From Trypanosoma brucei (Eukaryota), in assembly GCA_000002445.1 (NCBI GenBank), contig CP000071.1:2240001-2304000 (forward strand): a stretch of DNA of 64,000 bases, given 5' to 3'. Shown here in pieces: positions 6,545-58,488 of this stretch. Both the position numbers and the translations under genes were made by a program. The notes under the pieces are model-generated. The model was not told the origin of the DNA, ran no database searches, and saw nothing but the letters and a program-made list of their open reading frames with translations. Every line of letters begins with the position of its first letter. The stretch's first letter is position 1.

Positions 6545-9500
6545 ATGGGGGCTGTGCCCAGCCGTGAGTCCTTGGGGCGCGGACTGTGCCAAATACCAGA
6601 TTATGGGCAGAAGCACAAAATGGTGCTCATTCCCTTAACGAGAGAGTTCTTCCCGTCACCCGACTGTTTGCTCTTACGGCAGCTCTTTGAGGCGCGGAGG
6701 GATCCGTTTGTCCATTACTATCACACATTCGATGAGGGGTTTGCTAAGGCGCAAGCGCCAGATCCTGCTGTGGACGCTGACGCCGCAAAACTTTATGATC
6801 TCCAGGGTCTTGTTGCTCCATCAACCAGCGCCTCCGCTACCGCCCATCTCGTTGAGGGCAAGGCATGGCGTGCTGATGACTTTGTGCCTTTTAGCTGTAC
6901 ACTGGAAGAGTTCTACGACTCGTATGTGTGCCGTATGGGCGAGCGCCGCATATACGATACAGATGAACAGATGCTCAGGTTGTGCACGCGGGACCCGAAC
7001 GCGATCCGCCCTGTGCCGTGCGCGGTAGCGTTTGCTTATAACTCTGCCCCCACGCCCTCCGTACTCGGTAATAAAGAGGCGCTTGGTGGGGAGGTCATGT
7101 TGCGTGAGGATGGTAGTAATAGTGAACTGGGTAACAGCGGTGGGGAAAGTAGAGCTGAGGTAGGGGATGCAAAGGGCAGTACGCTAGAGGAAAGCAGCAT
7201 GCTTTTTGGATTGTACGTGCGTATCGTTGGTTTCGTTGGTGGTGTGAGTGACATCTGCCCGCATGGTTGTAACGATGTGTTGCTGGAGGATACGTTTCAA
7301 CTACAAGTGTTTCTTAACAAGTCGGTTGGAGACCACAACTTTGTACACGCCTTCATAACGGCCGTTTATACCTATGTAAGGCAATGGCGTGAGGCAGCGG
7401 TGATGCACATAGGGAGTATTGAGGACCAAAGGCAACCGACGGGACGTGGCTCGGTTGAGGTAGGGGAAGGGGGACATTCTAAGGTTTCCTCCACTATGAG
7501 TGGCGAGAAGCCGTTGATGACACCTCCTGCTGCGTCTGTTGTTATTGCATGCAAGCGGACCAACGTTCCAATGCTATGTTTCCAGCGGGGGTTGCGAGCG
7601 ATGCTATCACGACTCCTAGGCATTGTGGAGTCCGAGGGGATAAGTAACCCCGGAGGGCCGTGTTGTTGTCGGTGCCGCAGAAAAAATGATTGTATTCTTC
7701 AGACGCATAAATTAGCAGCTGGGGTTCCGTTGGGTACGCCACAAGACGGCGATACCAAAGTTGTCAGCGAATGTTCTTCTGCTCCTTCTTTGGAAAAAAC
7801 TACCATGTTGGAGAATGTCTTTGACATGTGGTTGAATGGCGACGTAGTGTTTGCATGTATTCCAAAGCAAATTGTAGCACGTGCTTTGGAATGTGTTGGG
7901 ATGCGCATGGGTTGCCCAGAGTGCATAATGGACATTGTGCGACCAAAACGTACTGAAACGCGGGCGGGCTGTAACACGGAAGTGAGGACGGCGCAGTCTA
8001 ATCCCCATGTCGGAGTGGCCCGGGATGTGTGCTCGCTGCACTCAACTGCCGATGCTTTTTGCCCACAAGATGCCGTTAACGCATTGGCTACCACTGCCGC
8101 TAAGGGTTCCTCCTCAAAAGGCTATGGGGGCGGTCTCAAAGTGTGCGACTCTGAGGCCGCTGCCACTGAACTACCTGCACATCAAAAGCTGCATGACGTA
8201 TTGGGCGAGACTGTGGTTGTGGAGGAATGGCCAGTGGATGGGATCGATCTGGTCAGCTTTACGAACGCCAAGGGGGATACCATCGACCGCCCGGCGCACT
8301 TGTATTGGGTAGTTGGGCGTTCAGTGACTGCCCAAGAAACCGCAGCCTCTGCCTTTTTCTCATGGTGGGCTGGTGGGAGGCTAACGGTTATGGGAGGAGG
8401 ATGTGACGTGTCGAACGAAAGTGAGCACGAAAGAAGCAACAGTGGGAAGGGGAAAGTGGATGAACGCTTGTCGGTCGGAGAGTTGCTTTACCTCAATATG
8501 AACCCATGCCAGTCAAATGCGATGCGTCAGTGGGTTCTTCAGCGTACCACGCTCCCACTGGAGGAGCTTTTGCTATCTGAACTACATGACAGCTGCAAGC
8601 TGGCACGACAGGCGCCGGTTGATGCAGAGAACTGGCTGCGCCATACTGACATCAGCGGCCCACGAGAGCGTGACAGGTCTCTACTGCTACCGCTAGGTGC
8701 TGAGGATACCAATGGGGAAGACTTGTCAGAGTTTGCTGTTGGTGTAAGACAACTTGTTGGCGAAGGTTCGCTTTGTTTGTGGCGGGTGACACTCGTGACA
8801 GGTGCAGTGCGCGCTATAGCGGTCACACCGCACTTTCTTCGCCCGCCACGGAAAAAGCGGGCGCGCAGAAAGCCAACCCGGCGCCCGTATGCTCCGGAGC
8901 AGGCTAATGCAACATCGACGGCGGTGGATGGGGCTGCACCGGTCAACAGCTTTGGGCCCTCAGCGGAGACGCAGGCATCCAAGGGCAGAAGAGCAACGAG
9001 GTCAAAGATGGTAACAAGACGGTCGGTACCATTACCAACAGCTGTCGTATCGGAAGGTGTGCTAAGGAGCGACGAACGGTCCGCCATGTCGCCATCGTTG
9101 AGCCAAGGGCTCTGCAGGGAGGGCGGAGTCCCTCCGATGGCTCCTCCTAACACCACGCCTTCTGTGGGTTTTGGTCGTGTGCGGACTCGGCAGCAGCCTT
9201 GCTGCTACGGAAACCCTGCGCTGGCTTCCCATATGGAGGTGCCTGCATTTCCCCAAGGTCAACAATCCGGTTTTGTTGCTTTCAACCAGCCAGTTGTCGA
9301 TTCTAGTCATTCCCCCGTTTCTGATGCAAGCTATGCAAATAGGCGTACGTCGACTCCTTTTCTGAGCCGCCGAACTTCAAGGGAGGATCAACTTGGGTTT
9401 ATGCCTTACGACAGTTACAATGTTTCGCGCCGCATAAGCAGTGACGTAACAAGCCAACGCTTATCTACGGCTTCCTTCACCCATTTCCCTCGTTGGGACG

Positions 9501-9859
9501 GGTGTGGAACCATCTGGCCCTACACAGGTTCGGAGGAACGGCCGAGTGTTACACGGCATTCGTCAGCGGTGGGAGGTGGGTGCACTCCCTTTTTTCAGCC
9601 GGCAGATGGATGGTCAAATTCCATGCACTCACGTTCTGGCACCCGCGAGGACTTTCACCCTTCCTGTGCCCTCCACCGGACCGGCGGAGGTTTCAGCAGC
9701 AGCGGCGGCTGCAGCAGTGAAAGTGTTGCAGGTTGTGCCCGCACTCAATTCGACTTCATTTCTGCGTCTGGACTTGGAACTGATGAGGTGTACGCCGATG
9801 GGGCGGAGGTGAGAACCCCAACACTTAATGTAACGGTGCGGCGTGGCCTGCAACACTGA
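6545..9859 (+). CDS. Member 1 (1104 aa) of a tandem paralogue family. Conserved N-terminal domain with an MGAVPSRE N-myristoylation consensus; Ser/Thr/Gly-rich C-terminal half. Function unknown.
   Basis: 3.3 kb ATG-initiated ORF. The N-terminus (MGAVPSRESLGRGL...VLIPLTREFFPSPDC) is shared with the ORFs at 12048 and 21587. Blocks YDTDEQMLR, PVPCAVAF, IVGFVGG and YVRQW are conserved among the paralogues. Confidence 0.8.
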   Translation: MGAVPSRESLGRGLCQIPDYGQKHKMVLIPLTREFFPSPDCLLLRQLFEARRDPFVHYYHTFDEGFAKAQAPDPAVDADAAKLYDLQGLVAPSTSASATAHLVEGKAWRADDFVPFSCTLEEFYDSYVCRMGERRIYDTDEQMLRLCTRDPNAIRPVPCAVAFAYNSAPTPSVLGNKEALGGEVMLREDGSNSELGNSGGESRAEVGDAKGSTLEESSMLFGLYVRIVGFVGGVSDICPHGCNDVLLEDTFQLQVFLNKSVGDHNFVHAFITAVYTYVRQWREAAVMHIGSIEDQRQPTGRGSVEVGEGGHSKVSSTMSGEKPLMTPPAASVVIACKRTNVPMLCFQRGLRAMLSRLLGIVESEGISNPGGPCCCRCRRKNDCILQTHKLAAGVPLGTPQDGDTKVVSECSSAPSLEKTTMLENVFDMWLNGDVVFACIPKQIVARALECVGMRMGCPECIMDIVRPKRTETRAGCNTEVRTAQSNPHVGVARDVCSLHSTADAFCPQDAVNALATTAAKGSSSKGYGGGLKVCDSEAAATELPAHQKLHDVLGETVVVEEWPVDGIDLVSFTNAKGDTIDRPAHLYWVVGRSVTAQETAASAFFSWWAGGRLTVMGGGCDVSNESEHERSNSGKGKVDERLSVGELLYLNMNPCQSNAMRQWVLQRTTLPLEELLLSELHDSCKLARQAPVDAENWLRHTDISGPRERDRSLLLPLGAEDTNGEDLSEFAVGVRQLVGEGSLCLWRVTLVTGAVRAIAVTPHFLRPPRKKRARRKPTRRPYAPEQANATSTAVDGAAPVNSFGPSAETQASKGRRATRSKMVTRRSVPLPTAVVSEGVLRSDERSAMSPSLSQGLCREGGVPPMAPPNTTPSVGFGRVRTRQQPCCYGNPALASHMEVPAFPQGQQSGFVAFNQPVVDSSHSPVSDASYANRRTSTPFLSRRTSREDQLGFMPYDSYNVSRRISSDVTSQRLSTASFTHFPRWDGCGTIWPYTGSEERPSVTRHSSAVGGGCTPFFQPADGWSNSMHSRSGTREDFHPSCALHRTGGGFSSSGGCSSESVAGCARTQFDFISASGLGTDEVYADGAEVRTPTLNVTVRRGLQH

Positions 9860-12047: not shown

Positions 12048-14747
12048 ATGGGTGCTGCTCCAAGCAGGGAGACACTACGACGGGGGCTATACAACGTGCC
12101 AACACAGATGAAGAATAATGTTGACAGCTCCCGATCTCAAAGCAAACCAGACATTGTACTTATTCCGCTCATTAAAGAATATTTTCCATCGGCCGACTGC
12201 CCGCTGTTCGTGCAGTTTCACAAGATGCGGTGTGATCCGGGTGTGAATTATTACTTCCGCCACCCTCTGTACCCGGGTGATTTGAGCCGCATTCCCAACG
12301 TGCATAGCAATGATGCCAGGTCTTCTAACCGATCGAGAGATGCACTGTATTCTGAATTTGTGGAGCAGACAGAGGAGAGACTCTTTGATACAGATAATGA
12401 GATGCGACAGGCACATGAGCTTTCCATGAGTGACAGGTCTGCCGGTGGATCCCCTTCCTTCCATATGGAGGGGGCGAAAACAGCAAACGTTGGGAAAAAA
12501 GTTCTTCCGATCATATGCGCAGTGGCTTTTCTCCACGATCGCGAGAAGTTTGAACAACTTCAACAGACTCAGGGGACTCCGGGGGGTAGCAGGGTGCCAC
12601 ATGTTTTGATGGGGAAGGAAAACTCGGATATTCTTGAAGGAAAGGTTGTCAACATCATCGGTTTCTTTGGTATGTTACCAAGGGAGATAGAGCGGAAACC
12701 GTTGACATCTCCGGTAATCTTCAGTCCCGTAAGTCCCGGATTAAGTGCGACCGGAAAAGGCATTGCGGCACCAAGTATGTTGAAAAATTCTCTTTCTCTG
12801 CCATGTACAGCTAGGGGGCCCAGCCATGGTTCCTCGCAAGACCTTCAGCAACTGATTGCACCGCTCTCTTCACAGGCTTCAGTGGCTAGTGGGAACGAAC
12901 TTCGCAACCGTCCCAGCTTTGTACCTACGCCGCACGTGCCACCTGAACGATGCCCGTTGACAGCATCCGCTGGTGCCTTTTCACTGGTGTCCTCTCTCGG
13001 CGGGACGCCAGCTCGGGAACCGTCGGCGAGACAGCGACCCTTCTTGCAGTCAGAAGGTTTGTTACGGGAAATGGACCAGGCGTTGTCTTACCGTTGCACT
13101 GCGTTGGAGGAGAGGCTTAGCCGGTTTGGTTTGCCGGCACCTGCGGCGCCGGAGCCGCTTACAGCTGTTGTTTTTATGACCAAGTCTGCGGGAGAGCAAA
13201 ACCTGTGTCGGGTGACTTTTGTGGCCGCCAAGACTTATCATGGCCAGCTGGTTGAGGCTGGGGTACTAAAGCAGCGTGGAAATGGCCCTTCACCACCGCT
13301 GGAATCCGAAAGGCGGTATCTCCCACCTTTGGAAACATTTAGTTTTTCATCGCTGATGACAAACGTACCGTTTATTTCATTCGTGTACGAAATGCGTTGT
13401 CGCTGGGGACGCTTTGGGTTTTTCTCTCGACGTGTGGACTCACCGTCCTTACGGATGGGTTCTCTGAATGCTTCCTCCAGTTTTACTTACGGCTTTACGG
13501 GAGGCGCACATTCAGAGGCACCGAATCCGGAAGAGACACACAGGGGCTTCGCCATGTGGCTGACAAAAAACGGTGTGTTCCATGGCCGAATCGAAAGAGA
13601 ACTGGCGGAACATCTTTGTTTTTGCATGGCAGAACAGCCCGACTTCATGTCAGTCCCAGCTGCAACACTTCCAATAGGTGGGGGTTACTGGCGGTTCCGT
13701 GGCCTTGTTGACCGTAACAACCCACGACCTATTCAGCTTTGTGGCGACGGTGCTGAAGCGGCGGACCCGCTTGATGTGTATGTCATGGGTTCCCCAGCGG
13801 TTGGTGGTTTTGACGAGGGTGATGTTTTGAAATATGACCAAACGAGCCGTTCGTGGGTGGCCAACCGGGACATCCCACTCGATGCTGTTGTCCTTGCGGC
13901 AATGCGGCCATTTTGCAAGGCTGCGCGCACAGCTCCACCCGATGACATCGGGTGGGTGACTATTGAGGTGGAAGAGCAAGACGAGATGGGGGTTGAAGAC
14001 CAGGATCATCTTGAGACGGCGGGAAAGAGGGATATGGATACCGGGGCAGTTGTTCGTCAAGAGGACCGTGATGGTACTGTGGTGAGAAAACGAGTCCACG
14101 TTCGTGAAGGGAATTTCTATATCTATCGTTTTGAGCTGAATGGTGAGGTGCATTACCACGGTACTGTGCCAGATTTCGCGAATCCCAACAAAAAGAGGGC
14201 ATCGCACAGCAGTTCTGTCGGGGCGAGGAGTGTAGCTCCCATGGGGCCAGCGGTTGTCGCACGGCGTTTTGATAATACGAACGAAAGGGGCCGTCAACAT
14301 TCTGTTGGATTAACAGCAGACCGCAGCACCAACGAGCACTCATTGTCTGTGACTTCAACGTTTTCCCCCCCCTTTGTTGAGAGTTTTATGGGGAGCGAAA
14401 GGACGAGTGCAACGTTCCTAGCAAGCCCTCTCCAGCCCGTAAGGGAGGCCATCAGTCGCTCGGTGGGGACGGTCTCGTATTCTAATCGGGGCTATGAGTC
14501 GACCGGGAGCCAGTCCTCTTTTCCTGTTGTGCCTGTGACCCCAGATACGATGTTTCCTCCATCGAGAGGGCTGACAACGCCGGTGGCGCGTCGCAGGTCG
14601 ACATTTGTGCCAGTTGGCTCGGAGGTCGAAGTGGATGAGTCGCAACGGGACACGAATGAATCGGACGGAGGGCCAACAGCATTTGTCAGGCGCTTCATAG
14701 ACTCAACGGTTTATATATGGGACTGGAGATATTGCGCAGATAGATAA
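12048..14747 (+). CDS. Member 2 (899 aa) of the MGAxPSRE paralogue family. N-myristoylation consensus. Function unknown.
   Basis: 2.7 kb ATG-initiated ORF. The N-terminus (MGAAPSRETLRRGLY...IVLIPLIKEYFPSADCPLF) and the blocks FDTDNEMRQ, PIICAVAF and IIGFFGMLP align with the ORFs at 6545 and 21587. Confidence 0.8.
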   Translation: MGAAPSRETLRRGLYNVPTQMKNNVDSSRSQSKPDIVLIPLIKEYFPSADCPLFVQFHKMRCDPGVNYYFRHPLYPGDLSRIPNVHSNDARSSNRSRDALYSEFVEQTEERLFDTDNEMRQAHELSMSDRSAGGSPSFHMEGAKTANVGKKVLPIICAVAFLHDREKFEQLQQTQGTPGGSRVPHVLMGKENSDILEGKVVNIIGFFGMLPREIERKPLTSPVIFSPVSPGLSATGKGIAAPSMLKNSLSLPCTARGPSHGSSQDLQQLIAPLSSQASVASGNELRNRPSFVPTPHVPPERCPLTASAGAFSLVSSLGGTPAREPSARQRPFLQSEGLLREMDQALSYRCTALEERLSRFGLPAPAAPEPLTAVVFMTKSAGEQNLCRVTFVAAKTYHGQLVEAGVLKQRGNGPSPPLESERRYLPPLETFSFSSLMTNVPFISFVYEMRCRWGRFGFFSRRVDSPSLRMGSLNASSSFTYGFTGGAHSEAPNPEETHRGFAMWLTKNGVFHGRIERELAEHLCFCMAEQPDFMSVPAATLPIGGGYWRFRGLVDRNNPRPIQLCGDGAEAADPLDVYVMGSPAVGGFDEGDVLKYDQTSRSWVANRDIPLDAVVLAAMRPFCKAARTAPPDDIGWVTIEVEEQDEMGVEDQDHLETAGKRDMDTGAVVRQEDRDGTVVRKRVHVREGNFYIYRFELNGEVHYHGTVPDFANPNKKRASHSSSVGARSVAPMGPAVVARRFDNTNERGRQHSVGLTADRSTNEHSLSVTSTFSPPFVESFMGSERTSATFLASPLQPVREAISRSVGTVSYSNRGYESTGSQSSFPVVPVTPDTMFPPSRGLTTPVARRRSTFVPVGSEVEVDESQRDTNESDGGPTAFVRRFIDSTVYIWDWRYCADR

Positions 14748-16952: not shown

Positions 16953-18632
16953 ATGCAGTTTTGTGGCGGGCTTGTTTGCCGCACACCACCACGACGATTT
17001 GCATGGAAGCAAACTTACAGCCAACTTCTACCATCACACTCCATGGTTCCCTCTGCGTACATATGCGGGCGTTTGCGCCAAGCGCACCACTACTCCGGTC
17101 GATTTGCTTGTAGCGCTGCTTCTGTTGTGGTAGAGAGTCCCTCTGATGGAGCTGGGATCCTCACTTTCACAGCCAACACAGTTGATGGCGCTGCGCGTGC
17201 GCTCAGCGAAATAATGCATGAAGCTCAGGCGCTTTCTCATTCTGTGGAACTTCGCGCGTTGGAGCGCCTGGAGGCCATCCTAAGGCAAAACGCTGACTTA
17301 CTGGCATTAGCGGAGGCCCTTGCTACGGGAATATGTTTGCGTGAAGCTCGGAACTCGATTGGGTTGGCGGCAAACGTCGTCGGAAGTTGTGCGGAACGTC
17401 TGCGTGGGTGCCCCGCCTCGGTCGCCGCCAGCGAGACCATTGATGTGGAGGACTTACTTCGTTCGTTGGGCTGCAGTGACAGGGGTATCAACTGTCACGG
17501 TATCAGGTGTGCAACTGGCGGAGGTTCCTCGGTAGCGCTGTGCTACACATCGGCCAATTACCCCCTTCAGAGAGGTGTTGAGGCTATCGCCGCCGCTCTT
17601 TTGCGAGGTCATGTGGTCGTCTGGCTGCCATCACTTGAAGCACCGCTCTCCGCGTTGTGGCTTATGCAGTTGCTTTGCCGCTCTTTCAGCTGCCAAGCTG
17701 ACGAAAACGACAGTCGGAGTGCCACTAGTGATGACAAGGGCTGCGATCCGGGCGTTGGTATGCATACCGTGGACCCTATAAATATCATTTTGTATCGCGG
17801 TGAAAACTCAATTTTACTTGAAAAGGCTTTCGGCGTACGAGGCGCCCGTGAAGGCTTGGAGCTAGTAGGGTTGACGAACGGCTTTACAGAAGGCCAAACA
17901 AACCAGTTTTCCGTCCACTTGTCGGATAGCCAAGTGAGACGTTCGGATATTAGCGCCTTGTACGCCATTGATTGGCACCATCGGTTGACTAAACCTGCGG
18001 TTGCCATTGTTAGTGTTTCCCAAGGGGAATCACAGTCATTTTCACCTTCTATCCCATTGACGGCATGCGCGGCAGTGGCGAAAACAGATTCAGCGCCTAC
18101 ACACGTGGAATGTGTAGCTGAAAATTTCTTTCATCACGCCTTTCACTGCAATGGGAGAACACTGCACCCACTTCACGTGGCGTTCATTCCCCACGAGGAT
18201 GTGCTACCGATACTCCGTTACCTTCGGGAGCGCATACGACAGGTGCGCATTGGGCACAGTCTTGACAGCAGTGTTGAGCTTGGCCCGCTTCCCACTTCTA
18301 AACACCTCTCTTTGGTGAAGGAACTTATTGAGTCTGCTACTAGCGGTGACGATGATGCTGGGGTCTGTATTCAACAGGTGTGCGGCGGGTTCGAGGTAGC
18401 GATGCCTGCAGGTTTTTTTTGCCTTCCCTGTGTGCTGTATGCCCGGCTGCCGAATGAAGCACCAGGTGCAGTTTCTTCGATGGTTGAACGAGTCATGAAG
18501 CTGCGCACGGAGTTGGATGAATTGGGAGGTGGTCCTGTAGCTCTTGTGTGCGCCTATGACCTTCGGCACCAGTTAGATGAGTTACACGTATGGAAGGACA
18601 ACGCGCAACATTATGTTGTGCATGACTGGTGA
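16953..18632 (+). CDS. Aldehyde-dehydrogenase-superfamily-like protein (about 560 aa), divergent. The catalytic-Cys position appears substituted, so it may be non-catalytic.
   Basis: The track ORF starts at a TTG (16929); the first ATG is 16953. Motifs recalled from ALDHs are present: DVD-AV-like TVDGAARAL; ERLEAILRQNADLLALAEALATG matching ER.xxL.KLADLIE...LA.LE; LPSLEAPLSALWL matching KPAE.TPLTAL; LELVG matching LELGG; and RIGHSLDSSVELGPLPTSKHLSLVKELIESA matching the +vG.P.d..t..GPlis..q..kv..yIe motif. The GQCCxAGSR catalytic-Cys region is replaced by FHCNGRTLHPLH. Confidence 0.6.
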   Translation: MQFCGGLVCRTPPRRFAWKQTYSQLLPSHSMVPSAYICGRLRQAHHYSGRFACSAASVVVESPSDGAGILTFTANTVDGAARALSEIMHEAQALSHSVELRALERLEAILRQNADLLALAEALATGICLREARNSIGLAANVVGSCAERLRGCPASVAASETIDVEDLLRSLGCSDRGINCHGIRCATGGGSSVALCYTSANYPLQRGVEAIAAALLRGHVVVWLPSLEAPLSALWLMQLLCRSFSCQADENDSRSATSDDKGCDPGVGMHTVDPINIILYRGENSILLEKAFGVRGAREGLELVGLTNGFTEGQTNQFSVHLSDSQVRRSDISALYAIDWHHRLTKPAVAIVSVSQGESQSFSPSIPLTACAAVAKTDSAPTHVECVAENFFHHAFHCNGRTLHPLHVAFIPHEDVLPILRYLRERIRQVRIGHSLDSSVELGPLPTSKHLSLVKELIESATSGDDDAGVCIQQVCGGFEVAMPAGFFCLPCVLYARLPNEAPGAVSSMVERVMKLRTELDELGGGPVALVCAYDLRHQLDELHVWKDNAQHYVVHDW

Positions 18633-21560
18633 GTGCGCGGCGATATATTTGAGGAATAGGTGGGGACGTGAGCAGATGCCACATTAAGTGTTGCGTGGTA
18701 TGCCAAGTTAAATCGTACAGCTGCCGTGGAAATTAGGAGAAGAAAGTGCCGCAATACGCATTTGGTGTTAACAGTGAAACCGTGTATATGCTTGTGTGTG
18801 TGTGTGTGTGGAATTGGTGATACGGAAAGGAAATGTGCCAACAGTTCGGCGGCCAAAAAGCGGTACGATAACCTTTGTCCAGTACGCGCAGTCTGTGTTA
18901 CGTCGCGGAAGTGGAGTTTCTTTGTGCCATGGCTTGCCGTTATTGCTATTGTTATTACTGTTATTATTATTATTATCATCATCATCGGTATTAATCCATC
19001 TATTTATTTCCTGTCTGATGTTATGCCTCGAGCCATACCGCAATTCCCGCATCCTCTTTACTGTTTGCCTTCTTCATCTTTCTTTCCTCTGAAAGGGGCA
19101 CCGTGGCGAAGAAACGGCAAAAAGCGAGAAGGAAGAGGGAATAATAGGGAAGCAAAATCATTTGGGGTACTTGGAACAAGAGAAGGAGAGAGCAGAAAAC
19201 GAAAAAAAAAATAGAAATAGAAAAAAGGACTCCAAAGGGGACGTTGTGCGCGTGTAGGTGCCCAGCCGAAGACAAGCAACTATTAAGCAAGCAAACAAGC
19301 AAGCAAGTGAAGAAGAGCAAGAGGAGACGAGAGAATAATACGTTAAGTGGCAGTTAGTTGTACGTATACGCACATATTTATATATATACATATACATTTA
19401 AGTACACATATAAAGTGAGGAAACAGAATAGGGTGGAGTGCATCTGTAAAAGTCCCATCCCCGTTGTTTAGTGCACACGCAAACTTTCAAAACGGACAAA
19501 CGCGCGTTTCCGTGTGAAGAGGCCATTCTATTGCTGACACGTCTCCGCGTAGCACCTGTGCCGTCGTTTTGAATATTCGTCTGTTTTTTTTCCTTCGTTT
19601 TCTTGATAAAAGAAAATCACATATAGTTAAATTTGACTTTTGCTGATTTAAATTTTTTTTTTTTAAAGAAAAGAAAAGCGGTGTGGAATATACGTTGTTG
19701 CGGGAGGGGAAAGAAGAGACGGGAGGAAACAAAACCAGAGGTGTGGAAGCATCGAGTTCTATAACGGGAATAATATTAAATCATAGGGGGGGGGTTGAAA
19801 ACACGCAAACAGACAGGAAAAAGAAAACAACAATAACGAGAGGGGGAGTCCTGACGACGCACTGACAAGAAGTATCAAATCAGTATAGTTTTTCTTTTTT
19901 CTTTTTTCTTTTGCATCTTTCAACGACACCAGAAAAAGGGGAATAAATAAATTGTAAACTTCTTTCTGTACGCGTACTACATACGTATATACATACATAT
20001 ACATATTTATACATAGGAAAAAAATTTCGTTTCTTTTTTTTTTTTCTTTAAATTTTCGTCCACCAATCGCTCCTCTGCTTTAAACAAAACGGGACAAGGT
20101 AATAAAACAAGAGTAAAATAAATTCAAGGAAAGTAAGAGAGTCGTTTACTTTGTAACTTTTTGCTCTCTTTGCATTTGCATTTGCATTTTTCTCCTCTTT
20201 TTTGTTTTTCTCCTTTGTAATTTTATCTTTCATTATTAAAATCATAATTGTCACCATTTTCTACCGCCCGTCTTTCTGTTTCTGCTTTGCTCTTCGCGTG
20301 GATTCATTTTTTCTTTGTCACTAACTCCCTCAACTACAGTGTGTTACTTTAACACAAACCTAGCGGTTGTGCGTGTGTGCGTGTGTGTGTGTGTTTTAAA
20401 TCTTAGATAACCCTCATTGTCATTTTTTTTGATTTATATTTTGCCACCGCAGAGTCCGTGGAAGTAAAAGAGAGGAATAACAAAAACGATAAATAATAGG
20501 GAAAAAAAGAAGGGGAAAGGAGAGAAAAAGGTAAAAAAGGGAGAAAAAGGCGTGACAGTAGTTGTGGTTGGAGGGGGACCCCGAATAGAAAAAAAAAAGG
20601 AAGGAAGAAAAAAAAAAGAGGGAAAAGGACGGAGAGAGAAAGAGGGATCCGGGGACGGCGCAATTATATAAAAAGATATACAACACACACGTGCTATCGC
20701 TTCTTTGTTCTGTGGTTTATACAAACACATTCACATCCGTATTAGTTTTCTTATTAATATATCGTGCCGCGCCACACATTTCTTGTGCAGACATATATAT
20801 TTATACACATTTGTTTTTATATAAAAGGTGAGGAATTGAAGGAGTTTTTTTTTCTTTGCGCCATCGATCTATTCGCTTTCACCACAAGTCGCCACCGTCA
20901 TTGCGCCATTAATTTACTACTCGCGGTTATTCCATCAAGGGTGGAAAGGGAGGGATTGACAGGAGATAAATAAAGCAATTCAAACCTTTTTTTTTTCTAA
21001 AAAAAGTGAGAGAAGGAAAAAAAAAGAAGAAAGTGACGGGGTGAAAACAAGTAAATCCAATAATATAAGGAGGTATAGTTATAAATAAATAAATATATAT
21101 TGGGGGAGGCGTACAAGTTAGAATATAAAGGTATTTCCAAGTAGCTTACTCTTGACATCAGTTGTTTTAATAATAATAATAATAGCATTGACTTTAGGGT
21201 TCTTGTTGACCATTTTTTTTTAAAAGGAAAACAAAATCGTTCTGCTTTTTTTTTTCCGTTTGACTAAAAACCTTTCCCTACATTGTGGAGCGGGTGCCGT
21301 TTTTTCAGTGTCTTTTTTCTTTGTAATTTGATCAGTTGAGATCGGGGAGGAGTGGGGTTAAGGGTTAGGGGTTTGTTGGATTTTTGTCTTTTTTTTTCCT
21401 TGAGAAGAGACCCAAGTAAAGAAGGAGGAAAAAAAAAGACAGATTTGTAAAGAGAGGAATTTAGAACGGAAGGGACCCAACAGAGATAAAGAGGAGAGGA
21501 GAGGAGAGGTGTGTGTGGTAGTTCCTTTTTTTTTCTTTACATTAATTTTTTCGTGAGGTG

Positions 21561-21586: not shown

Positions 21587-24055
21587 ATGGGAGCACTGCC
21601 GAGCAGGGAAACACAACACCGCGGTTTGTATAGCCATCGTCATGGGCGCAATAGGCGGAGTGAAGTTATTTTAGTTCCTCTTACCAGTGAGTTCTTTCCG
21701 AGTGAGAGCTGCCCTCTTTTTACGCATTTATTCCAGGCGAAGCACCACCGCACCGCCAAATATTACTATCGAGCAACACGCCCCGCCGACACGGATTGGG
21801 AATCCGATTATTATTGTCAAACGACCGCCCACGTCCGTAATATCAACATAACTGATTCAGATGATTCCGCAAAGGTCGGACACTTTGAGACATTCTTCAC
21901 GGATGATATCTCAGGACTATATCACAGACTCGTGCGCGAGACCGAGTACTGCATGTGTGAAACGGATGAGGAGCTTCGGACACGATACGAAGAGCAGATC
22001 CGCCAGCAACAGCACCATCAGCGAAAGCAGCGACTGCAAAGACCGGAGAAATCAAGCGATTATGGGACTGCTGGTGGCCGCTCGTACGAGGAATATTTTG
22101 GATTTGCTTCCGGCGCTTACACCAGTGGCTACACTGATGCTTTGGCCTTCATGAAGGGAAGGGAGCAGCACACGCACCGCAATGCGTGTGGTACGCATGT
22201 AACTTCATCGAGTGCCTATTACCTTCGTCCTATTCCATGTGCAATTGTGTCGCGGTCCGAGGCACACAAATCTGCATCTGAGACTGGGGTTGAGTTCCTT
22301 GGTTCAACGGTTAAGGTGCTCGGTATGTTTGGGCTTCTTCCCTCCATAATCCCAGTGACTGTGCATGGCGAAGTGATGGAGCAGCATATGCTGAAGGCCA
22401 CAATGTTCGTTGACAAGGATGTCGGCGACCAGATATTGGGTAACGTAGTGATGCTTGCTGTCCACATGTACGTCCGACAATGTATTGAGGCCCGTATCCG
22501 AGCTCCATACATTCCAATGGTTCCCATGATTCTTCGGACACCCATATCAAACATCCCGATGCTACAGTTTGTGCGGGAGATGCGAGTGCGTCTTCGTGGC
22601 TTGTTGGAAGCCGGTGCACCGCGCCGGGGCGGAGGAGCGGGAAGGCGTGTGGGTTCATTCCACGGCACTGAGGGAACTCGCGAGGCGGTGGAGGCATCTT
22701 CCCGTTGTGAGGCAGATATACTGTACCTTTTTGAAGAGGATGTACCCAATGCCATTTCTGCCCACCAACTTTTCCTTGATCCGGCGGAGGCACAGTCACT
22801 AAGGCTCCACCCGGCACAGAACACCAATTCTGATGGTACCATTCCGATTCTCCTCATGTCGGGCGTGAATGTGCAGGCGGCACCACTAACACATCCCTCC
22901 GTTACGAGTATGTCACATGTGCGCGTCCCGCCGTGGGCGCTTGAAGGCGCCTCCGACTCTGCAGGCGGTGGACCATCCGAAGCGTCCCCGCAGCGTGAAG
23001 CCTTCCAGGCCACGTCGCTTTTGGCAACACGACGGAACCGCTTCCGCATTTGGGTGGAAGGTGGTCGGCTGTGCATTTGGGCGAGTGCCGCGTACGCTCG
23101 GCGGGGGTGTCTTATGCTCGCTCAGAAGCTTACACAGACGGTTGACAATAATCTTTTGCCAGTACCACGCCCGTGGAATTACCGTGGTCTTTTGCGCGGT
23201 GGTATGCCAATGCCGGAGCCAGAGCTCGCCAATGATGTGTTCATTGTGGCTGAGGACATGCCGAGTATGGGGCTTTATCAGGGTGACGTTCTCCGTTGCA
23301 GCACTCCCGTGGAGATCGCTGATCAGCAACAACGGCTGTCACTGCACGGAACATCCGCAACATCTTCGTCCACGTTACTCGAGGCGATATGTGTGCACAG
23401 CAAGAAAAGTGTGACCAGCGCCTCCACACCTATGGAACCGACGACACCCGGTGGGCAGCAAAAAAGTCAGGAGAGTTTTGCAAGCAGTCACCCCACTAAT
23501 TTACTTCTACAGGATCCGGGCGAGGCCCCACCGAATGCCTTCTGGGTGTGCATTCCTTTCGACCGCGACTGTGTGAGTGCGGGACCTAATGAAAGACGGC
23601 AACAACAACATCAACTGGACACTGTGTCCCATCGGGCAACCAATGTGGAAGAGGTTCTTCTCTCGTGGATCAAAATAATTTCACTCAAGACCCGCGAAGC
23701 CAGTGAGGAGGATGTGTATTGGGTGCGTGACCCCACAACCGGAGCGCCACTCCGGGTGGATCGCTACGTTATACGCCGTGTGGAGCATGATGGCATGCGT
23801 TATTTCATTGGTGTCACCCCGCGCTTTGTTGGGCAACAGCGCCGATTGGAGAGAATGTTGGAAGACATCAAAGCTCAAGATGCGGGAAGTCCGGATTTGG
23901 ACGTGGAGCGGGAGGGGTTTCACATGTCGCCCACACACGCTGGCACAGCTTTGGAGGGTAATGATGACGACAGTGAAGACGATGATGCAGATGATGGATG
24001 CGCTGCCATGGCGCAGATGCTCAGCGGGCAGTCAAATATATTTTACAGGGAATAG
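21587..24055 (+). CDS. Member 3 (822 aa) of the MGAxPSRE paralogue family. N-myristoylation consensus. Function unknown.
   Basis: The track ORF begins at a GTG inside the (GT)n repeat (21560). The first ATG (21587) gives MGALPSRETQHRGLY...VILVPLTSEFFPSESCPLF, which aligns with the N-termini of the other two paralogues. Shared blocks are ETDEELR, RPIPCAIV, VLGMFGLLP, YVRQC and IPMLQF.R..R.RL.GLL. Confidence 0.75.
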   Translation: MGALPSRETQHRGLYSHRHGRNRRSEVILVPLTSEFFPSESCPLFTHLFQAKHHRTAKYYYRATRPADTDWESDYYCQTTAHVRNINITDSDDSAKVGHFETFFTDDISGLYHRLVRETEYCMCETDEELRTRYEEQIRQQQHHQRKQRLQRPEKSSDYGTAGGRSYEEYFGFASGAYTSGYTDALAFMKGREQHTHRNACGTHVTSSSAYYLRPIPCAIVSRSEAHKSASETGVEFLGSTVKVLGMFGLLPSIIPVTVHGEVMEQHMLKATMFVDKDVGDQILGNVVMLAVHMYVRQCIEARIRAPYIPMVPMILRTPISNIPMLQFVREMRVRLRGLLEAGAPRRGGGAGRRVGSFHGTEGTREAVEASSRCEADILYLFEEDVPNAISAHQLFLDPAEAQSLRLHPAQNTNSDGTIPILLMSGVNVQAAPLTHPSVTSMSHVRVPPWALEGASDSAGGGPSEASPQREAFQATSLLATRRNRFRIWVEGGRLCIWASAAYARRGCLMLAQKLTQTVDNNLLPVPRPWNYRGLLRGGMPMPEPELANDVFIVAEDMPSMGLYQGDVLRCSTPVEIADQQQRLSLHGTSATSSSTLLEAICVHSKKSVTSASTPMEPTTPGGQQKSQESFASSHPTNLLLQDPGEAPPNAFWVCIPFDRDCVSAGPNERRQQQHQLDTVSHRATNVEEVLLSWIKIISLKTREASEEDVYWVRDPTTGAPLRVDRYVIRRVEHDGMRYFIGVTPRFVGQQRRLERMLEDIKAQDAGSPDLDVEREGFHMSPTHAGTALEGNDDDSEDDDADDGCAAMAQMLSGQSNIFYRE

Positions 24056-34965: not shown

Positions 34966-36480
34966 ATGCTTTTTCACACGACACCATGCAGTGTCAACGG
35001 CGTGCCGTTAGTTTCATTTAATGCCGTTGCCCCCTTCAACGCTTCGATGGGCGGCCCTCCTGTGGCGACTCCGCCGGGTCAACGGACATTAACGACATTT
35101 TATTCAGATCCCACGGCGTCGTGGCAAGCCGCGGTTCCGCTCGGTAAAATAGCCTCACCGCCGCCGCCCTCGCGCGGATCCGCAGCTTCGACCCCACCGA
35201 GCCTCACCGGCAGCAGCCCCAGCGTCCAACACTCCAGCCCCAACAGTCAACTCGGGTTTCGTGGCCACAGTGGCATAATTATCACCAGCGGTGGTGGTGG
35301 TAACGTGCATCAGTTCCATCCCCATCCTCAACAACATCCCACAATGAGTGGGAACAGCAGTATTAACAGTACCAGCAATATGAGCCCATTGCCACCGGGT
35401 GCCATGCCAGCGTGTGCTTGGAATCTTTCCATGTCGCCACCGCCGCCCTCTTCACAGCCAATTTATGTTGTTCTGCCACATGGTCCGGCACCAACAGCAG
35501 GAGGGCCGATGCCTCCCGGAGCGGCGTTGACAGCAGCGCGAGCCCCGTCATCTTTGCCCACTACTTTGCCATCCCGCCGCGGAAACGGAATGATGTATCA
35601 ACTTGGGGAGTGGTATGAGGGAGTCGTAAAGCGGTACAACCCGATGCGTGGCTTCGGTTTCCTTACGGCAACACATCATCTGCAGGTCATCCCGCCCGAT
35701 GTGGATAACAGGGCGGGATCTGTGAGTGATGCTGATGGCCAAAACTCGCAACAAACCGCATCACCACCCCAAGCCACATTACTGAGGACGCCCGTAACGG
35801 TCGGTGATGTGTTCGTGCACCAGTCATACATCCGAATGCAGGGGTTCCGTGCGCTCAGCACTGGTGACCGTGTTGCCTTCCGTGTTGGGAAACTTCCTGG
35901 TAAGGATGCGAATCAGGCTGTTTCAGTTCAATTACTATCCACGGCTAAGCCGGCAACTGGTGCAACTCCAACAGAGGAGGAGGAAGAGGACGTGCAGGGA
36001 TCATCATCGACAACAGCCACGACAGTTTTGTCAGGGTTTTCCCTCACGCAGCACTCATCTAAGGATCATGAGGGTGATGCGCAAAATAGTGCCCCTGGCG
36101 TTACGGAGCATGATGTTACTGATGAGAGCGTCACACATTCCGACATTACAGTGGAGCGACTTCTTGCACACATTACCAGGCATGCGATTCCCTCTTCTGT
36201 CGCATCAACTGCGGAGCCCCTCGACGGCACAGACGCTACGAATGATGACAATATTGGGGGAAATGACAATATGAAATGTTCCCGTGACGGATGGGTTGAA
36301 AATGCGCCAACTCAGCGCCGCCACCTTCCATTTTGCCCTCGCCTGGAAGAAGTCGCCGCAGCTCTTGAGGCCACTGATTTTCTTGGGGAAGCCGAACTGA
36401 CATCACCGCCTGCTCAATGGGGTTTATTGTCGCCAAGTACCGACGCTCGGGGGCTCTTTGGTGGATTTGATGGGAAATGA
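34966..36480 (+). CDS. Cold-shock-domain protein (504 aa), putative RNA/ssDNA-binding. Pro/Ser-rich N-terminus; the CSD carries an internal insertion.
   Basis: ATG-initiated ORF. YEGVVKRYNPMRGFGFLTA matches the CSD start G.VKWFN..KGFGFI. DVFVHQSYIRMQGFRALSTGDRVAFRV matches DVFVHFSAI...GF+SL.EGQ.V.F.V. A roughly 40-aa insertion lies between the two halves. Confidence 0.75.
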   Translation: MLFHTTPCSVNGVPLVSFNAVAPFNASMGGPPVATPPGQRTLTTFYSDPTASWQAAVPLGKIASPPPPSRGSAASTPPSLTGSSPSVQHSSPNSQLGFRGHSGIIITSGGGGNVHQFHPHPQQHPTMSGNSSINSTSNMSPLPPGAMPACAWNLSMSPPPPSSQPIYVVLPHGPAPTAGGPMPPGAALTAARAPSSLPTTLPSRRGNGMMYQLGEWYEGVVKRYNPMRGFGFLTATHHLQVIPPDVDNRAGSVSDADGQNSQQTASPPQATLLRTPVTVGDVFVHQSYIRMQGFRALSTGDRVAFRVGKLPGKDANQAVSVQLLSTAKPATGATPTEEEEEDVQGSSSTTATTVLSGFSLTQHSSKDHEGDAQNSAPGVTEHDVTDESVTHSDITVERLLAHITRHAIPSSVASTAEPLDGTDATNDDNIGGNDNMKCSRDGWVENAPTQRRHLPFCPRLEEVAAALEATDFLGEAELTSPPAQWGLLSPSTDARGLFGGFDGK

Positions 36481-57300: not shown

Positions 57301-58374
57301 GGCAAGAAGAAAAGGGGAAAAATCTCTGAATTATATAACGGTTTCGATTGCGGCTGCTGTTTTGATCTTCCGTGAGAATGTTACGGAGCTCAACCACATT
57401 TCTTGTTTTTTTCCTTTTTTCTTTTTTAGCATGGCACGAATGAAGACATGAGTGTAATGCCATTTGAGACGATAGGTTAGGCTTGCAGGGCGTTCTGAGG
57501 GTTGTAATTCTTTCCATCTCGTCTTGCATCCTTCCTTATTGATTATACCACATCGCCTTAAAGCCATATACTTCCACGTGCCATATTTCCTTCACGTGTG
57601 GTGTTCTCACCGGTAACACTTTCGCGCGGTGTCATATTTGAGCACATCCCGGAAATATGACATCATTTAACTGAGGAAAGGAAAAATATTCATGCTGACA
57701 ATGGCTTTTAAGGCTTGTTATGCCCTCTGCGTTAGTGATGAAAGTGAGAGCAATTTAATGATATTCACTTTCGCAGATCCTCTGGCACTGAGATGAAGTT
57801 TACCGCTCTTTCCTTGATGTTATCGGTTTTAGGATGAAAAGAGAAGACGCATTTGTGCTCGCATAACAGAAAATATAAAAAAAAACATGCCACGACTGAC
57901 ATATTAATAATATGTAAGCAACCGTGCAAACGAGGGGCAAGATAGGTTTGACTCGCATTTATGCCCACTGGGAAGGGAACCTCCCAGGGATTGTTCCCAC
58001 CATTGCGTGGGGAAGCGGAAGACACTGCAAATGTCTCCAAACCCCAATGCACACCAGCGAAAAAATATAAAAAAGGGAGAGTCTTGAGATCAAGTTGGGA
58101 GGGAACTCATCAGGAAGGCAAGCCACTGGATGGGAGAGGGATGACCAAAAAAGAAACACTGCAAATACACATCAAAAACGCATTTGCGCCGTCCACACCG
58201 TCCTCAATATTGTGAATTGCCGCCGCCGACCTGTCCTTCAATTCCTTTTCACATTTCTGTGTAACTGCTCGACGGGTTTTGTGGAGATGTGCGCCCATTT
58301 GACGGTCTCAACTAAGCATTGAGCCGCCCCTCGAGTACGCAATCTCCTTTACACCATACGTAATGCTGCAATTT

Positions 58375-58454
58375 CTTCTTATAAGTCCCTGTTGCTTACA
58401 GTATTGTTGTCTATTATCATTATTATCATTATTCTCTCATTTCTCTTCTTTAAG
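58375..58454 (+). promoter_or_regulatory. Polypyrimidine tract plus TTAAG acceptor for the adenylate cyclase gene. The 5'UTR would be about 34 nt.
   Basis: tcttcttataagtccctgttgcttacagtattgttgtctattatcattattatcattattctctcatttctcttctttaag lies directly upstream of the ATG at 58489. The same element is duplicated at 63345-63401 before the second copy. Confidence 0.6.
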
Positions 58455-58488
58455 ACTTACGAATTCCTCAAGTCAAGTCACCAGTGTT

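What the first reader, a model, noticed from the sequence alone, without database searches (positions are those of the whole stretch)
16953..18632. The aldehyde-dehydrogenase-like gene appears to have lost its catalytic cysteine, which would make it a pseudoenzyme
- The ORF keeps several ALDH-superfamily landmarks in the correct order, as recalled from the family:
  - the N-terminal NP..GE/DVD.AV-like segment;
  - the ER..L..LADL+E...LA.LE..+.GK helix;
  - the KPAE.TPL(S/T)AL strand;
  - a LELVG counterpart of LELGGKSP that retains the general-base Glu;
  - the +vG.P.d..t..GP....q..k+..yIe motif as RIGHSLDSSVELGPLPTSKHLSLVKELIESA.
- Where ALDHs have F.NQGQ(C)CxAGSR with the nucleophilic Cys, this protein has ENFFHHAFHCNGRTLHPLHVAF. 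By my alignment the Cys position falls on Thr/Leu.
- The upstream Gly-rich NAD-binding turn is also not obvious.
- A divergent, probably non-catalytic ALDH-fold protein sitting inside an array of membrane and cytoskeletal genes is worth noting.
- Repurposed ALDH folds are known elsewhere, for example as structural or binding proteins.
Basis: partly seen in the sequence, partly recalled or inferred. Interest (0 to 1): 0.5.

Follow-up and report, generated by a model that had tools for sequence, protein, structure and literature searches.

The report
Dead, truncated aldehyde dehydrogenase of trypanosomes
This Trypanosoma brucei gene (Tb927.8.7770) encodes a conserved protein that keeps the aldehyde-dehydrogenase fold but has lost the residues needed for catalysis and cofactor binding, so it is very probably a non-catalytic "pseudoenzyme" of unknown role, an uncharacterised example of a known kind of thing.

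Summary
The ORF (window 16953-18632, +, 559 aa) is real. It is T. brucei TREU927 chromosome 8 gene Tb927.8.7770 (UniProt Q57U66). It is a significant but very diverged ALDH: Pfam PF00171 scores 62 bits, hhalign probability is 99.9 %, and the AF2 model matches ALDH crystal structures at TM 0.6-0.7 with about 15 % identity.

Cys399 in "FHC" lies 5 residues upstream and is Gly in half of the orthologues.

Other losses:
- Lys192 to Leu225 and Glu195 to Leu228.
- The Gly-rich turn and the GSTxxG motif.
- The general-base Glu, replaced by Arg344 or His342.
- Glu399/Phe401.
- The last 60-65 residues, including PFGGxKxSGxGRE and the C-terminal oligomerisation strand.

Intact syntenic orthologues occur across Trypanosoma and in Phytomonas, with dN/dS of about 0.38. 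The closest active relatives are a small ALDH clade that includes a Bodo saltans enzyme with all catalytic motifs.

The protein is predicted mitochondrial and was detected by mass spectrometry. No paper main text in the held library names the gene. Verdict: a new member of the known class of ALDH pseudoenzymes, of moderate interest.

The parts
16953..18632 (+). Complete CDS, 559 aa plus stop. Tb927.8.7770 / Q57U66, an ALDH-fold pseudoenzyme.
   Evidence: The ORF is. It is 100 % identical to the T. equiperdum/T. brucei-group cluster representative, whose members include the TREU927 entry XP_847604.1/Q57U66. The gene ID is linked to Q57U66 in Peikert 2017 Supp Data 4. PF00171 scores 62 bits.
16953..17051 (+). 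N-terminal 33 residues: a basic, acid-free leader (putative short mitochondrial presequence) plus the conserved arm RRFAWKQTYSQLLP.
   Evidence: The first acidic residue is at position 61, with 7 K/R in the first 60 residues. The motif R-F-x-W-K/R-Q..Y..LLP is conserved in Trypanosoma and echoed in Bodo and relatives as FLWGQ..FVP after MFRR/MLRR-type starts. TargetP and MitoFates are both positive in Peikert 2017 Supp Data 2a. pLDDT is 88-93 for residues 21-40.
17556..17558 (+). Asn202, in the column of the oxyanion-hole Asn169. Retained in T. brucei.
   Evidence: The alignment gives SANYPLQ against pWNFPL. The column is variable in orthologues: K in T. congolense, S in P0007, H in T. rangeli, A/Y/L in the Leishmaniinae-like set.
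17616..17666 (+). VVWLPSLEAPLSALWLM, the counterpart of the ALDH 'vvlKPsE.tPLtal' strand and helix. Lys192 is replaced by Leu225 and Glu195 by Leu228.
   Evidence: Leu228, Trp224, Trp236 and Leu237 are invariant in Trypanosoma.
17856..17885 (+). LELVGLTNGF, which aligns with 'liGFTGST' (the strand plus GSTxxG cofactor motif), not with LELGGK. Gly245 is replaced by Asn309 and Ser246 by Gly310.
   Evidence: MAFFT block, column table, and hhalign placing LELV on the 'vdmI' strand.
17973..17996 (+). WHHRLTKP, the counterpart of LELGGK. The general-base Glu268 column is Arg344 (MAFFT) or His342 (hhalign).
   Evidence: Trp341 and His343 are invariant, and no acidic residue is conserved here.
18138..18164 (+). 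AFHCNGRTL, the counterpart of 'F.N.GQ.C'. The catalytic Cys302 column is Leu404 (18162-18164). Cys399 (18147-18149) sits at -5.
   Evidence: Profile against 8yen and 1ky8, MAFFT and hhalign AFHCNGRTL against CFTNTGQTC. Leu404 is invariant in the eight Trypanosoma sequences, while Cys399 is Gly in 4 of 8.
18249..18287 (+). IGHSLDSSVELGP, the retained structural motif 'vG.p.d..t..GP'.
   Evidence: Gly434, Gly444 and Pro445 are kept in all 33 aligned sequences except Pro445 in one canonical ALDH.
18522..18548 (+). LGGGPVALV, the counterpart of 'EE.FGPVl.v'. Glu399 and Phe401 are lost.
   Evidence: A gapless register gives Leu524 and Gly526; MAFFT gives Val514 and Lys516. Neither register has Glu or Phe.
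18615..18629 (+). C-terminus VVHDW. The protein ends 31 residues after the GP column, so the last 60-65 residues of an ALDH are absent. His557 and Trp559 are invariant in Trypanosoma.
   Evidence: The trypanosomatid sequences have 31-56 residues after the GP column against 92-120 in active ALDHs.

Best explanation
**What it is**
- Tb927.8.7770 encodes a catalytically dead, C-terminally truncated member of the aldehyde dehydrogenase superfamily.
- Orthologues occur across Trypanosoma, in Phytomonas, and in high-GC Leishmaniinae-like contigs.
- Its closest active relatives are a kinetoplastid ALDH lineage that survives in the free-living Bodo saltans with all catalytic motifs.

**Shown**
- The two Rossmann-type domains of the ALDH fold are kept.
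- The nucleophile is gone (Cys to Leu404).
- The general base is gone (Glu to Arg344 or His342).
- The NAD(P) contacts are gone: Lys192 to Leu, Glu195 to Leu, the Gly-rich turn, Gly245/Ser246, and Glu399/Phe401.
- The last 60-65 residues are gone, including the PFGG..SG.GRE loop and the C-terminal oligomerisation strand.
- The gene is under purifying selection and the protein is made.

**Inferred**
- It is imported into the mitochondrion through a short basic N-terminal signal.
- It cannot oxidise aldehydes or bind NAD(P) in the canonical way.
- It is kept for a non-enzymatic job as a binding or scaffold protein.
- That job most likely uses interfaces other than the classical ALDH dimer interface, because the oligomerisation elements are missing.
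For: **Family and fold**
- PF00171 E = 4.3e-17.
- hhalign against 15 active ALDHs: probability 99.9 %, E = 5.9e-35.
- AF2 model: pLDDT 81.5, pTM 0.85.
- Top 50 Foldseek PDB hits are all ALDH-superfamily dehydrogenases: E about 1e-22 to 1e-20, TM 0.55-0.72, 12-18 % identity.

**Lost residues**
-.
- Structural columns are retained: G126, G219, P226, G401, G434, G444, P445, P528.

**Conservation**
- Eight intact Trypanosoma orthologues at 36-48 % BLASTP identity to the T. brucei protein, with more than 100 invariant columns.
- Conserved flanking genes in T. cruzi and Phytomonas.
- dN/dS of 0.376 between T. cruzi and T. c. marinkellei, against 0.22 and 0.36 for the neighbouring genes.

**Ancestry**
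- In an exhaustive profile search, the best non-orthologue hits (E 1e-33 to 1e-23) are a clade that includes Bodo saltans CUG69955. It has N, K, GSTxxG, E, C, E.F and PFGG..SG intact, and it shares clade signatures: the N-terminal F.W.Q motif, ESPSD, VVWKP, GHALDPS..QGP and GGF..P.GYF.
- Generic ALDHs score E of 1e-12 or worse.

**Expression and location**
- Two peptides were detected in organelle-enriched fractions.
- TargetP and MitoFates are both positive (Peikert 2017, PMC5436138).
Against: - No activity, cofactor-binding or localisation experiment exists for this protein.
- The ATOM40-knockdown ratio of about 0.76 was not significant, so mitochondrial import is unproven.
- The alignment around the general base and the Glu399 region is uncertain: two methods give different columns, although neither gives Glu.
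- Asn202 is retained in T. brucei, and Cys399 lies only 5 residues from the canonical position, so a rewired site in the African trypanosome lineage cannot be strictly excluded.
- Orthology with the Bodo enzyme rests on similarity ranking and shared motifs. No synteny was found.
- The non-enzymatic role itself is undefined.
Confidence: 0.78

Rival explanations
1. Prozyme model. The dead ALDH pairs with an active ALDH of the parasite and activates or regulates it, as the trypanosomatid AdoMetDC, DHS and PRMT1 prozymes do.
For: Trypanosomatids repeatedly use catalytically dead paralogues as obligate activators (PMC5201418, PMC3663545, bioRxiv 10.1101/776112). ALDHs are obligate dimers or tetramers (general knowledge). 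The protein is conserved and under selection.
Against: The elements that build ALDH dimers are missing or unrecognisable. The C-terminal strand is absent. Residues 150-193, where the oligomerisation hairpin should be, are modelled at low confidence with short helices. The closest active relatives are found in Bodo and unnamed environmental sequences, and no named trypanosomatid protein appears among the 120 best relatives of the Bodo enzyme. There is therefore no cognate close paralogue of the kind the known prozymes have.
Confidence: 0.1
2. It is still an enzyme. It would be an ALDH with a displaced nucleophile (Cys399) or a fold re-used for different chemistry without NAD(P).
For: A single-sequence phmmer alignment to 4qyj puts Cys399 on the catalytic Cys. 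Asn202 is retained in T. brucei. Pseudoenzymes with migrated catalytic residues are known (PMC10211241).
Against: Cys399 is Gly in T. cruzi, T. c. marinkellei, T. rangeli and P0007, and Asn202 varies (K/S/H). Every cofactor contact tested is replaced, mostly by hydrophobic residues that are invariant in the family (Leu228, Leu404; position 225 is L/F/I). The C-terminal part of the catalytic domain is missing. Three profile-level alignments disagree with the phmmer register.
Confidence: 0.06
3. It is a decaying gene relic without function.
For: Divergence from other ALDHs is extreme: only 432 of 1.84 billion representatives reach E of 1e-3 or better. The Leishmaniinae-like orthologues carry long low-complexity insertions. 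dN/dS of 0.38 is not low.
Against: The ORF is intact with a conserved start and stop in at least eight Trypanosoma species, Phytomonas and the Leishmaniinae-like contigs, in a conserved position. There are more than 100 invariant residues, including new family-specific ones (W224, W236, W341, H343, H557, W559). dN/dS is similar to that of the neighbouring genes. Peptides were detected.
Confidence: 0.04

Closest known systems
ALDH16A1 (vertebrate ALDH pseudoenzyme)
   Same: It is an ALDH-superfamily protein that lacks the catalytic residues and is regarded as a non-catalytic binding partner of maspardin and HPRT1 (PMC10650815).
   Different: The origin is independent. The only match of Tb927.8.7770 to the solved 767-aa ALDH chains 6mvr/6mvu is E of about 0.02 over the N-terminal helices. 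From memory, these are bacterial ALDH16 and ALDH16 carries an extra C-terminal domain; neither point was checked here. The trypanosome protein is C-terminally truncated and keeps the Asn.
Bodo saltans 'NAD-dependent aldehyde dehydrogenase' CUG69955 and its unnamed environmental relatives (P0011, P0013, P0018, P0019, P0026)
   Same: They are the closest relatives by profile score (E 1e-33 to 1e-23). They share clade-specific motifs: the N-terminal F.W.Q..VP arm, ESPSD, CLRDA, VVW-x-P, GH(A/S)LD and GGF..P.G(Y/F)F.
   Different: They keep every catalytic and cofactor motif and the full C-terminus, so they look like working enzymes. No synteny with the T. brucei locus was found.
Trypanosomatid prozymes (AdoMetDC prozyme, DHS paralogue, PRMT1 prozyme)
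   Same: They are lineage-specific, catalytically dead homologues of enzymes that are conserved across trypanosomatids.
   Different: The known prozymes have a close active paralogue in the same genome and keep the oligomerisation interface. Here no close active paralogue was seen and the interface elements are missing.
ALDH-derived lens crystallins (eta-crystallin; the cephalopod and scallop omega-crystallins are recalled from memory)
   Same: The ALDH fold is re-used for a non-metabolic, structural role (PMC10211241).
   Different: Crystallins are full-length, very abundant cytosolic proteins, and some are still active. This protein is truncated, of low abundance (2 peptides) and predicted mitochondrial.

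Membership tests
ALDH superfamily (Pfam PF00171, fold level) | Significant match to the family profile | tested here: met
   PF00171 scores 62.2 bits against a cut-off of 23, E = 4.3e-17, in two stretches. hhalign against active ALDHs gives probability 99.9 %.
ALDH superfamily (Pfam PF00171, fold level) | Two Rossmann-type domains (cofactor-binding and catalytic) | tested here: met
   AF2 model with pLDDT 81.5 and pTM 0.85. All top 50 Foldseek PDB hits are ALDH-superfamily dehydrogenases, TM 0.55-0.72.
ALDH superfamily (Pfam PF00171, fold level) | Oligomerisation domain (beta-hairpin around residues 140-160 plus the C-terminal strand) | tested here: not met
   The C-terminal 60-65 residues are absent. 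Residues 150-193 have pLDDT 43-65 and are modelled as short helices.
Catalytically competent NAD(P)-dependent ALDH | Nucleophilic Cys (ALDH2 Cys302) | tested here: not met
   Leu404, invariant in the eight Trypanosoma sequences.
Catalytically competent NAD(P)-dependent ALDH | General-base Glu (Glu268, LELGGK) | tested here: not met
   Arg344 (MAFFT) or His342 (hhalign). No conserved acidic residue lies in WHHRLTKP.
Catalytically competent NAD(P)-dependent ALDH | Oxyanion-hole Asn (Asn169) | tested here: met
   Asn202 is present in T. brucei, but the column is K/S/H or A/Y/L in orthologues.
Catalytically competent NAD(P)-dependent ALDH | Cofactor contacts: Lys192, Glu195, the Gly-rich turn, Gly245/Ser246 (GSTxxG), Glu399/Phe401 | tested here: not met
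   Leu225, Leu228, Tyr/Cys and Ile/Leu/Val at the turn, Asn309/Gly310, and non-acidic, non-aromatic residues at the 399/401 columns.
Catalytically competent NAD(P)-dependent ALDH | C-terminal PFGG.K.SG.GRE motif | tested here: not met
   The protein ends before this region.
Catalytically competent NAD(P)-dependent ALDH | Measured aldehyde oxidation or NAD(P) binding | not testable with these tools
   This needs recombinant protein assays.
Trypanosomatid prozyme (dead paralogue activating an active partner) | A close active paralogue in the same genome | tested here: inconclusive
   No named trypanosomatid protein appears among the 120 best relatives of the Bodo-type enzyme. More distant T. brucei ALDHs were not examined.
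Trypanosomatid prozyme (dead paralogue activating an active partner) | A physical heteromer that raises the partner's activity | not testable with these tools
   This needs co-purification and kinetics.
ALDH16-type pseudoenzyme | Membership of the ALDH16 clade, with the extra C-terminal domain (recalled from memory) | tested here: not met
   The only match to the 767-aa chains 6mvr/6mvu (which I recall, without checking, to be ALDH16) is E of about 0.02 over the N-terminal helices. The protein is shorter than canonical ALDHs at the C-terminus.
Mitochondrial matrix protein | N-terminal presequence and import dependence | tested here: inconclusive
   TargetP and MitoFates are positive and the protein sits in the mitochondrial reference set by annotation only. 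The ATOM40 RNAi ratio of about 0.76 was not significant. The leader is acid-free and basic.

The most novel reading that the evidence does not exclude
The dead ALDH has been recruited as a dedicated non-catalytic subunit, adaptor or regulator of a kinetoplastid-specific mitochondrial process. That could be a prozyme-like partner of another dehydrogenase, or a structural component of an RNA or ribosome-biogenesis machine not yet solved. In this reading, catalysis was lost on the stem leading to the parasitic trypanosomatids.
Probability: 0.2. Interest if true: 0.55.

Novelty: new member of a known kind. Interest (0 to 1): 0.35.

Why it matters
Trypanosomatids are the classic source of "prozymes", and their mitochondria recruit many dead enzymes into large machines. 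A conserved, parasite-lineage-specific ALDH pseudoenzyme with a still-active relative in free-living Bodo gives a clean pair for studying how an enzyme fold is repurposed.

It also corrects the database label "aldehyde dehydrogenase family, putative". That label would otherwise be counted as metabolic capacity in reconstructions and drug-target lists. The practical impact is modest until a partner or a phenotype is known.

Tried and rejected
**Alignment register**
- The single-sequence phmmer register putting Cys399 on the catalytic Cys was rejected. It needs 5 gap positions, three profile-level alignments contradict it, and Cys399 is not conserved.

**Synteny and homologue searches**
- Synteny with the Bodo locus: none detected.
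- A third word-indexed homologue search, with the Leishmaniinae-like alignment, was meant to recover named Leishmania orthologues. It returned only two of the six query-alignment sequences. Distribution in Leishmania proper is therefore not shown.
- Two look-ups gave no organism names for the environmental clades.

**Literature**
- No main-text hit for Tb927.8.7770, Q57U66 or the other accessions.
- Nothing useful for trypanosome ALDH pseudoenzymes or ALDH-like proteins.
- No occurrence of the gene ID in the held supplements of TrypTag, hyperLOPIT, the complex map or Dejung 2016. These files may be truncated, so absence is not informative.
- Alsford 2011 and Pyrih 2023 are not held.

**Other**
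- The afdb50 fold library was unavailable.
- The neighbouring genes gave no functional clue.
- The protein is not in any solved structure: the best PDB sequence hits are ordinary ALDHs at E of 4e-7 or worse for the single sequence. It is therefore not a subunit of the trypanosome complexes deposited so far.
Full report
**1. What is at the coordinates**

An uninterrupted ORF runs on the + strand from a TTG at 16929. The first ATG is at 16953 and the stop at 18630-18632, giving 559 aa. The ATG is the real start: Met1 aligns in all eight orthologues.

The protein is 100 % identical to the T. equiperdum/T. brucei-group cluster representative, named 'aldehyde dehydrogenase family, putative'. That cluster includes the T. 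b. brucei TREU927 entry XP_847604.1 / AAZ13538.1 / UniProt Q57U66, which lies on the 2.48-Mb chromosome 8 record. Several neighbouring ORFs are exact matches to TREU927 proteins in the AAZ13536-13547 range.

A published proteomics table links Q57U66 to gene ID Tb927.8.7770 (old name Tb08.6H23.40, 60.3 kDa) (Peikert et al. 2017, PMC5436138, Supp Data 4).

**2. Is it an ALDH?**

Yes, but an extremely diverged one.
- Pfam Aldedh (PF00171) matches with E = 4.3e-17 and 62 bits against a cut-off of 23, in only two stretches.
- NCBIfam equivalogs score 40 bits or less against cut-offs above 500.
- The best PDB sequence hit is E = 3.8e-7.
- A profile of the eight Trypanosoma orthologues was scored against 1.84 billion representative proteins. 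Only 432 reach E of 1e-3 or better, although ALDHs are a very large family (general knowledge).
- Profile-profile comparison with 15 active ALDHs gives probability 99.9 % and E = 5.9e-35 over 361 columns.
- An AF2 model built on a 33-sequence alignment is confident: mean pLDDT 81.5, pTM 0.85.
- Its top 50 Foldseek hits in the PDB are all ALDH-superfamily dehydrogenases: E about 1e-22 to 1e-20, TM 0.55-0.72, 12-18 % identity.

**3. The catalytic columns**

The register was determined in three ways:
- hmmsearch of the family profile against PDB chains.
- A MAFFT E-INS-i alignment of 33 sequences. It held 8 Trypanosoma sequences, 6 Leishmaniinae-like or Phytomonas sequences, 6 Bodo-type active ALDHs, 5 partly degenerate environmental sequences and 8 canonical ALDHs.
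- hhalign.

All three align AFHCNGRTL with F-x-N-x-G-Q-x-C, so Cys302 (ALDH2 numbering, recalled from memory) corresponds to Leu404.
- The family-invariant Phe397 and Gly401 sit on the conserved Phe and Gly.
- The spacing from Leu404 to Gly434 of IGHSLD is 30 residues, as in the Bodo-type enzymes and, from memory, in ALDH2.
- Pro413 sits on the clade-conserved Pro at +9.

That register appears only in one single-sequence phmmer alignment, to 4qyj, and it needs five gap positions downstream. Cys399 is Gly in T. cruzi, T. c. marinkellei, T. rangeli and P0007. Leu404 is invariant.

Other columns:

| ALDH2 column | In T. brucei | Note |
|---|---|---|
| Asn169 | Asn202 | kept here; K/S/H in other trypanosomes |
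| Lys192 | Leu225 | L/F/I across the family |
| Glu195 | Leu228 | invariant Leu |
| Gly-rich turn | both Gly replaced | |
| Gly245 / Ser246 | Asn309 / Gly310 | GSTxxG motif |
| Glu268 | Arg344 (MAFFT) or His342 (hhalign) | no conserved acid nearby |
| Gln300 | Arg402 | |
| Glu399 / Phe401 | non-acidic, non-aromatic | true in either register |

The structural Gly and Pro columns are all kept: G126, G219, P226, G401, G434, G444, P445 and P528.

The protein stops 31 residues after the 'GPV' strand, where active ALDHs have 92-120 more residues. About 60-65 residues are therefore missing, including PFGG.K.SG.GRE and the C-terminal strand of the oligomerisation domain. Residues 150-193, where the oligomerisation hairpin should lie, are modelled with low confidence as short helices.

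This segment aligns with the strand preceding FTGS.

**4. Conservation and ancestry**

Intact orthologues were found in T. congolense, T. vivax, T. cruzi, T. c. marinkellei, T. theileri, T. rangeli and one unnamed trypanosome. They are 36-48 % identical and share more than 100 invariant positions.

Flanking genes are conserved in T. cruzi and Phytomonas EM1, and partly in a GC-rich Leishmaniinae-like contig.

dN/dS between T. cruzi and T. c. marinkellei is 0.376, against 0.22 and 0.36 for the two neighbouring genes. Selection is purifying but not strong.

The next-best hits of the family profile (E 1e-33 to 1e-23) form a small clade that contains Bodo saltans CUG69955 ('NAD-dependent aldehyde dehydrogenase').
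- These proteins keep every catalytic and cofactor motif and the full C-terminus.
- They share clade signatures with the trypanosome protein, including the unusual N-terminal F.W.Q..VP arm.
- The Bodo enzyme's own nearest relatives are unnamed eukaryote-like sequences, followed by bacterial PuuC/phenylacetaldehyde-DH-like ALDHs. No named trypanosomatid protein appears in its top 120.

The simplest reading is that an active kinetoplastid ALDH lost catalysis and its C-terminus on the trypanosomatid stem. This is an inference. There is no synteny with Bodo and no formal tree.

**5. Location and expression**

The first 60 residues contain no acidic residue and 7 Lys/Arg. Clade members start with MFRR- or MLRR-type leaders, which I recall as typical of kinetoplastid mitochondrial presequences.

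Peikert et al. list Tb927.8.7770 in their mitochondrial reference set because of a TriTrypDB annotation plus positive TargetP and MitoFates predictions. It is not there because of any earlier proteome.

It was quantified from two peptides in organelle-enriched fractions. The ATOM40-RNAi ratio was about 0.76 and not significant; the column meaning is inferred from the table layout. The protein is therefore made, and mitochondrial import is plausible but unproven.

No paper main text in the held library mentions the gene ID or its accessions. It is not a chain of any deposited structure.

**6. Mechanism and rivals**

Most likely (about 0.78) this is a non-catalytic ALDH-fold protein retained for a binding or scaffold role, probably in the mitochondrion. 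It would probably not use the canonical ALDH dimer interface.

| Rival | Confidence | Main objection |
|---|---|---|
| Prozyme-type partner of an active ALDH | about 0.10 | lost interface elements; no close active paralogue seen |
| Residual or rewired enzyme | about 0.06 | non-conservation of Cys399 and Asn202; loss of all cofactor contacts |
| Functionless relic | about 0.04 | conservation, synteny, selection and peptide evidence |

**7. Comparison with known things and novelty**

ALDH pseudoenzymes are known. Human ALDH16A1 lacks the catalytic triad and acts through protein interactions (PMC10650815), and ALDH-derived crystallins exist (PMC10211241). Trypanosomatids are known for dead-paralogue prozymes.

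This protein is an independent, lineage-specific and additionally truncated example. It has not been described as a pseudoenzyme in the literature I could search. I rate it a new member of a known kind, with interest 0.35. It would matter more if a partner or an essential phenotype were found.

Noticed in passing
window 6545-9859, 12048-14747, 21587-24055 (all +): Three paralogous large ORFs (1104, 899 and 822 aa) all start MGA(V/A/L)PSRE(S/T)..RGL. The Gly2 start would fit N-myristoylation. They have no Pfam hit. They flank the ALDH-like gene, and this arrangement is conserved in T. cruzi and Phytomonas.
   Followed up: partly
proteins P0020, P0022, P0023, P0024, P0025 (environmental contigs): A second set of unnamed ALDH-like sequences related to the Bodo-type clade keeps Lys192 but has lost Asn169, Cys302, Glu399/Phe401 and in part Glu268. 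This suggests further, differently degenerated copies of this ALDH lineage in unknown organisms.
   Followed up: partly
window 18615-18629: The extreme C-terminus is conserved as (V/L/I)-H-x-W-stop in all eight Trypanosoma orthologues, with His557 and Trp559 invariant. It is not conserved in the Leishmaniinae-like or Phytomonas proteins. The meaning is unknown.
   Followed up: no
window 58363-62259 (+): A receptor-type adenylate cyclase GRESAG4 gene, apparently the first copy of the Tb927.8.7860 tandem array on chromosome 8.
   Followed up: partly
window 34966-36480 (+): A 504-aa protein with a cold-shock domain (PF00313, E = 1e-11), annotated only as 'hypothetical protein, conserved' in TREU927.
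   Followed up: no
window about 18650-19100: Simple-sequence DNA lies just downstream of the ALDH-like stop codon. Spurious ORFs there translate as runs of Ile (IIIIIIII) and as CVCVCV or HTHTH, which indicates short tandem repeats of the kind expected in a 3' UTR or intergenic region.
   Followed up: no
locus L003 6427-9609 and 12091-15708 (T. cruzi): T. cruzi has two additional large genes (1060 and 1205 aa) immediately next to its ALDH-like orthologue. Neither has a strong counterpart next to the T. brucei gene in this window. The upstream one is shared with Phytomonas.
   Followed up: no
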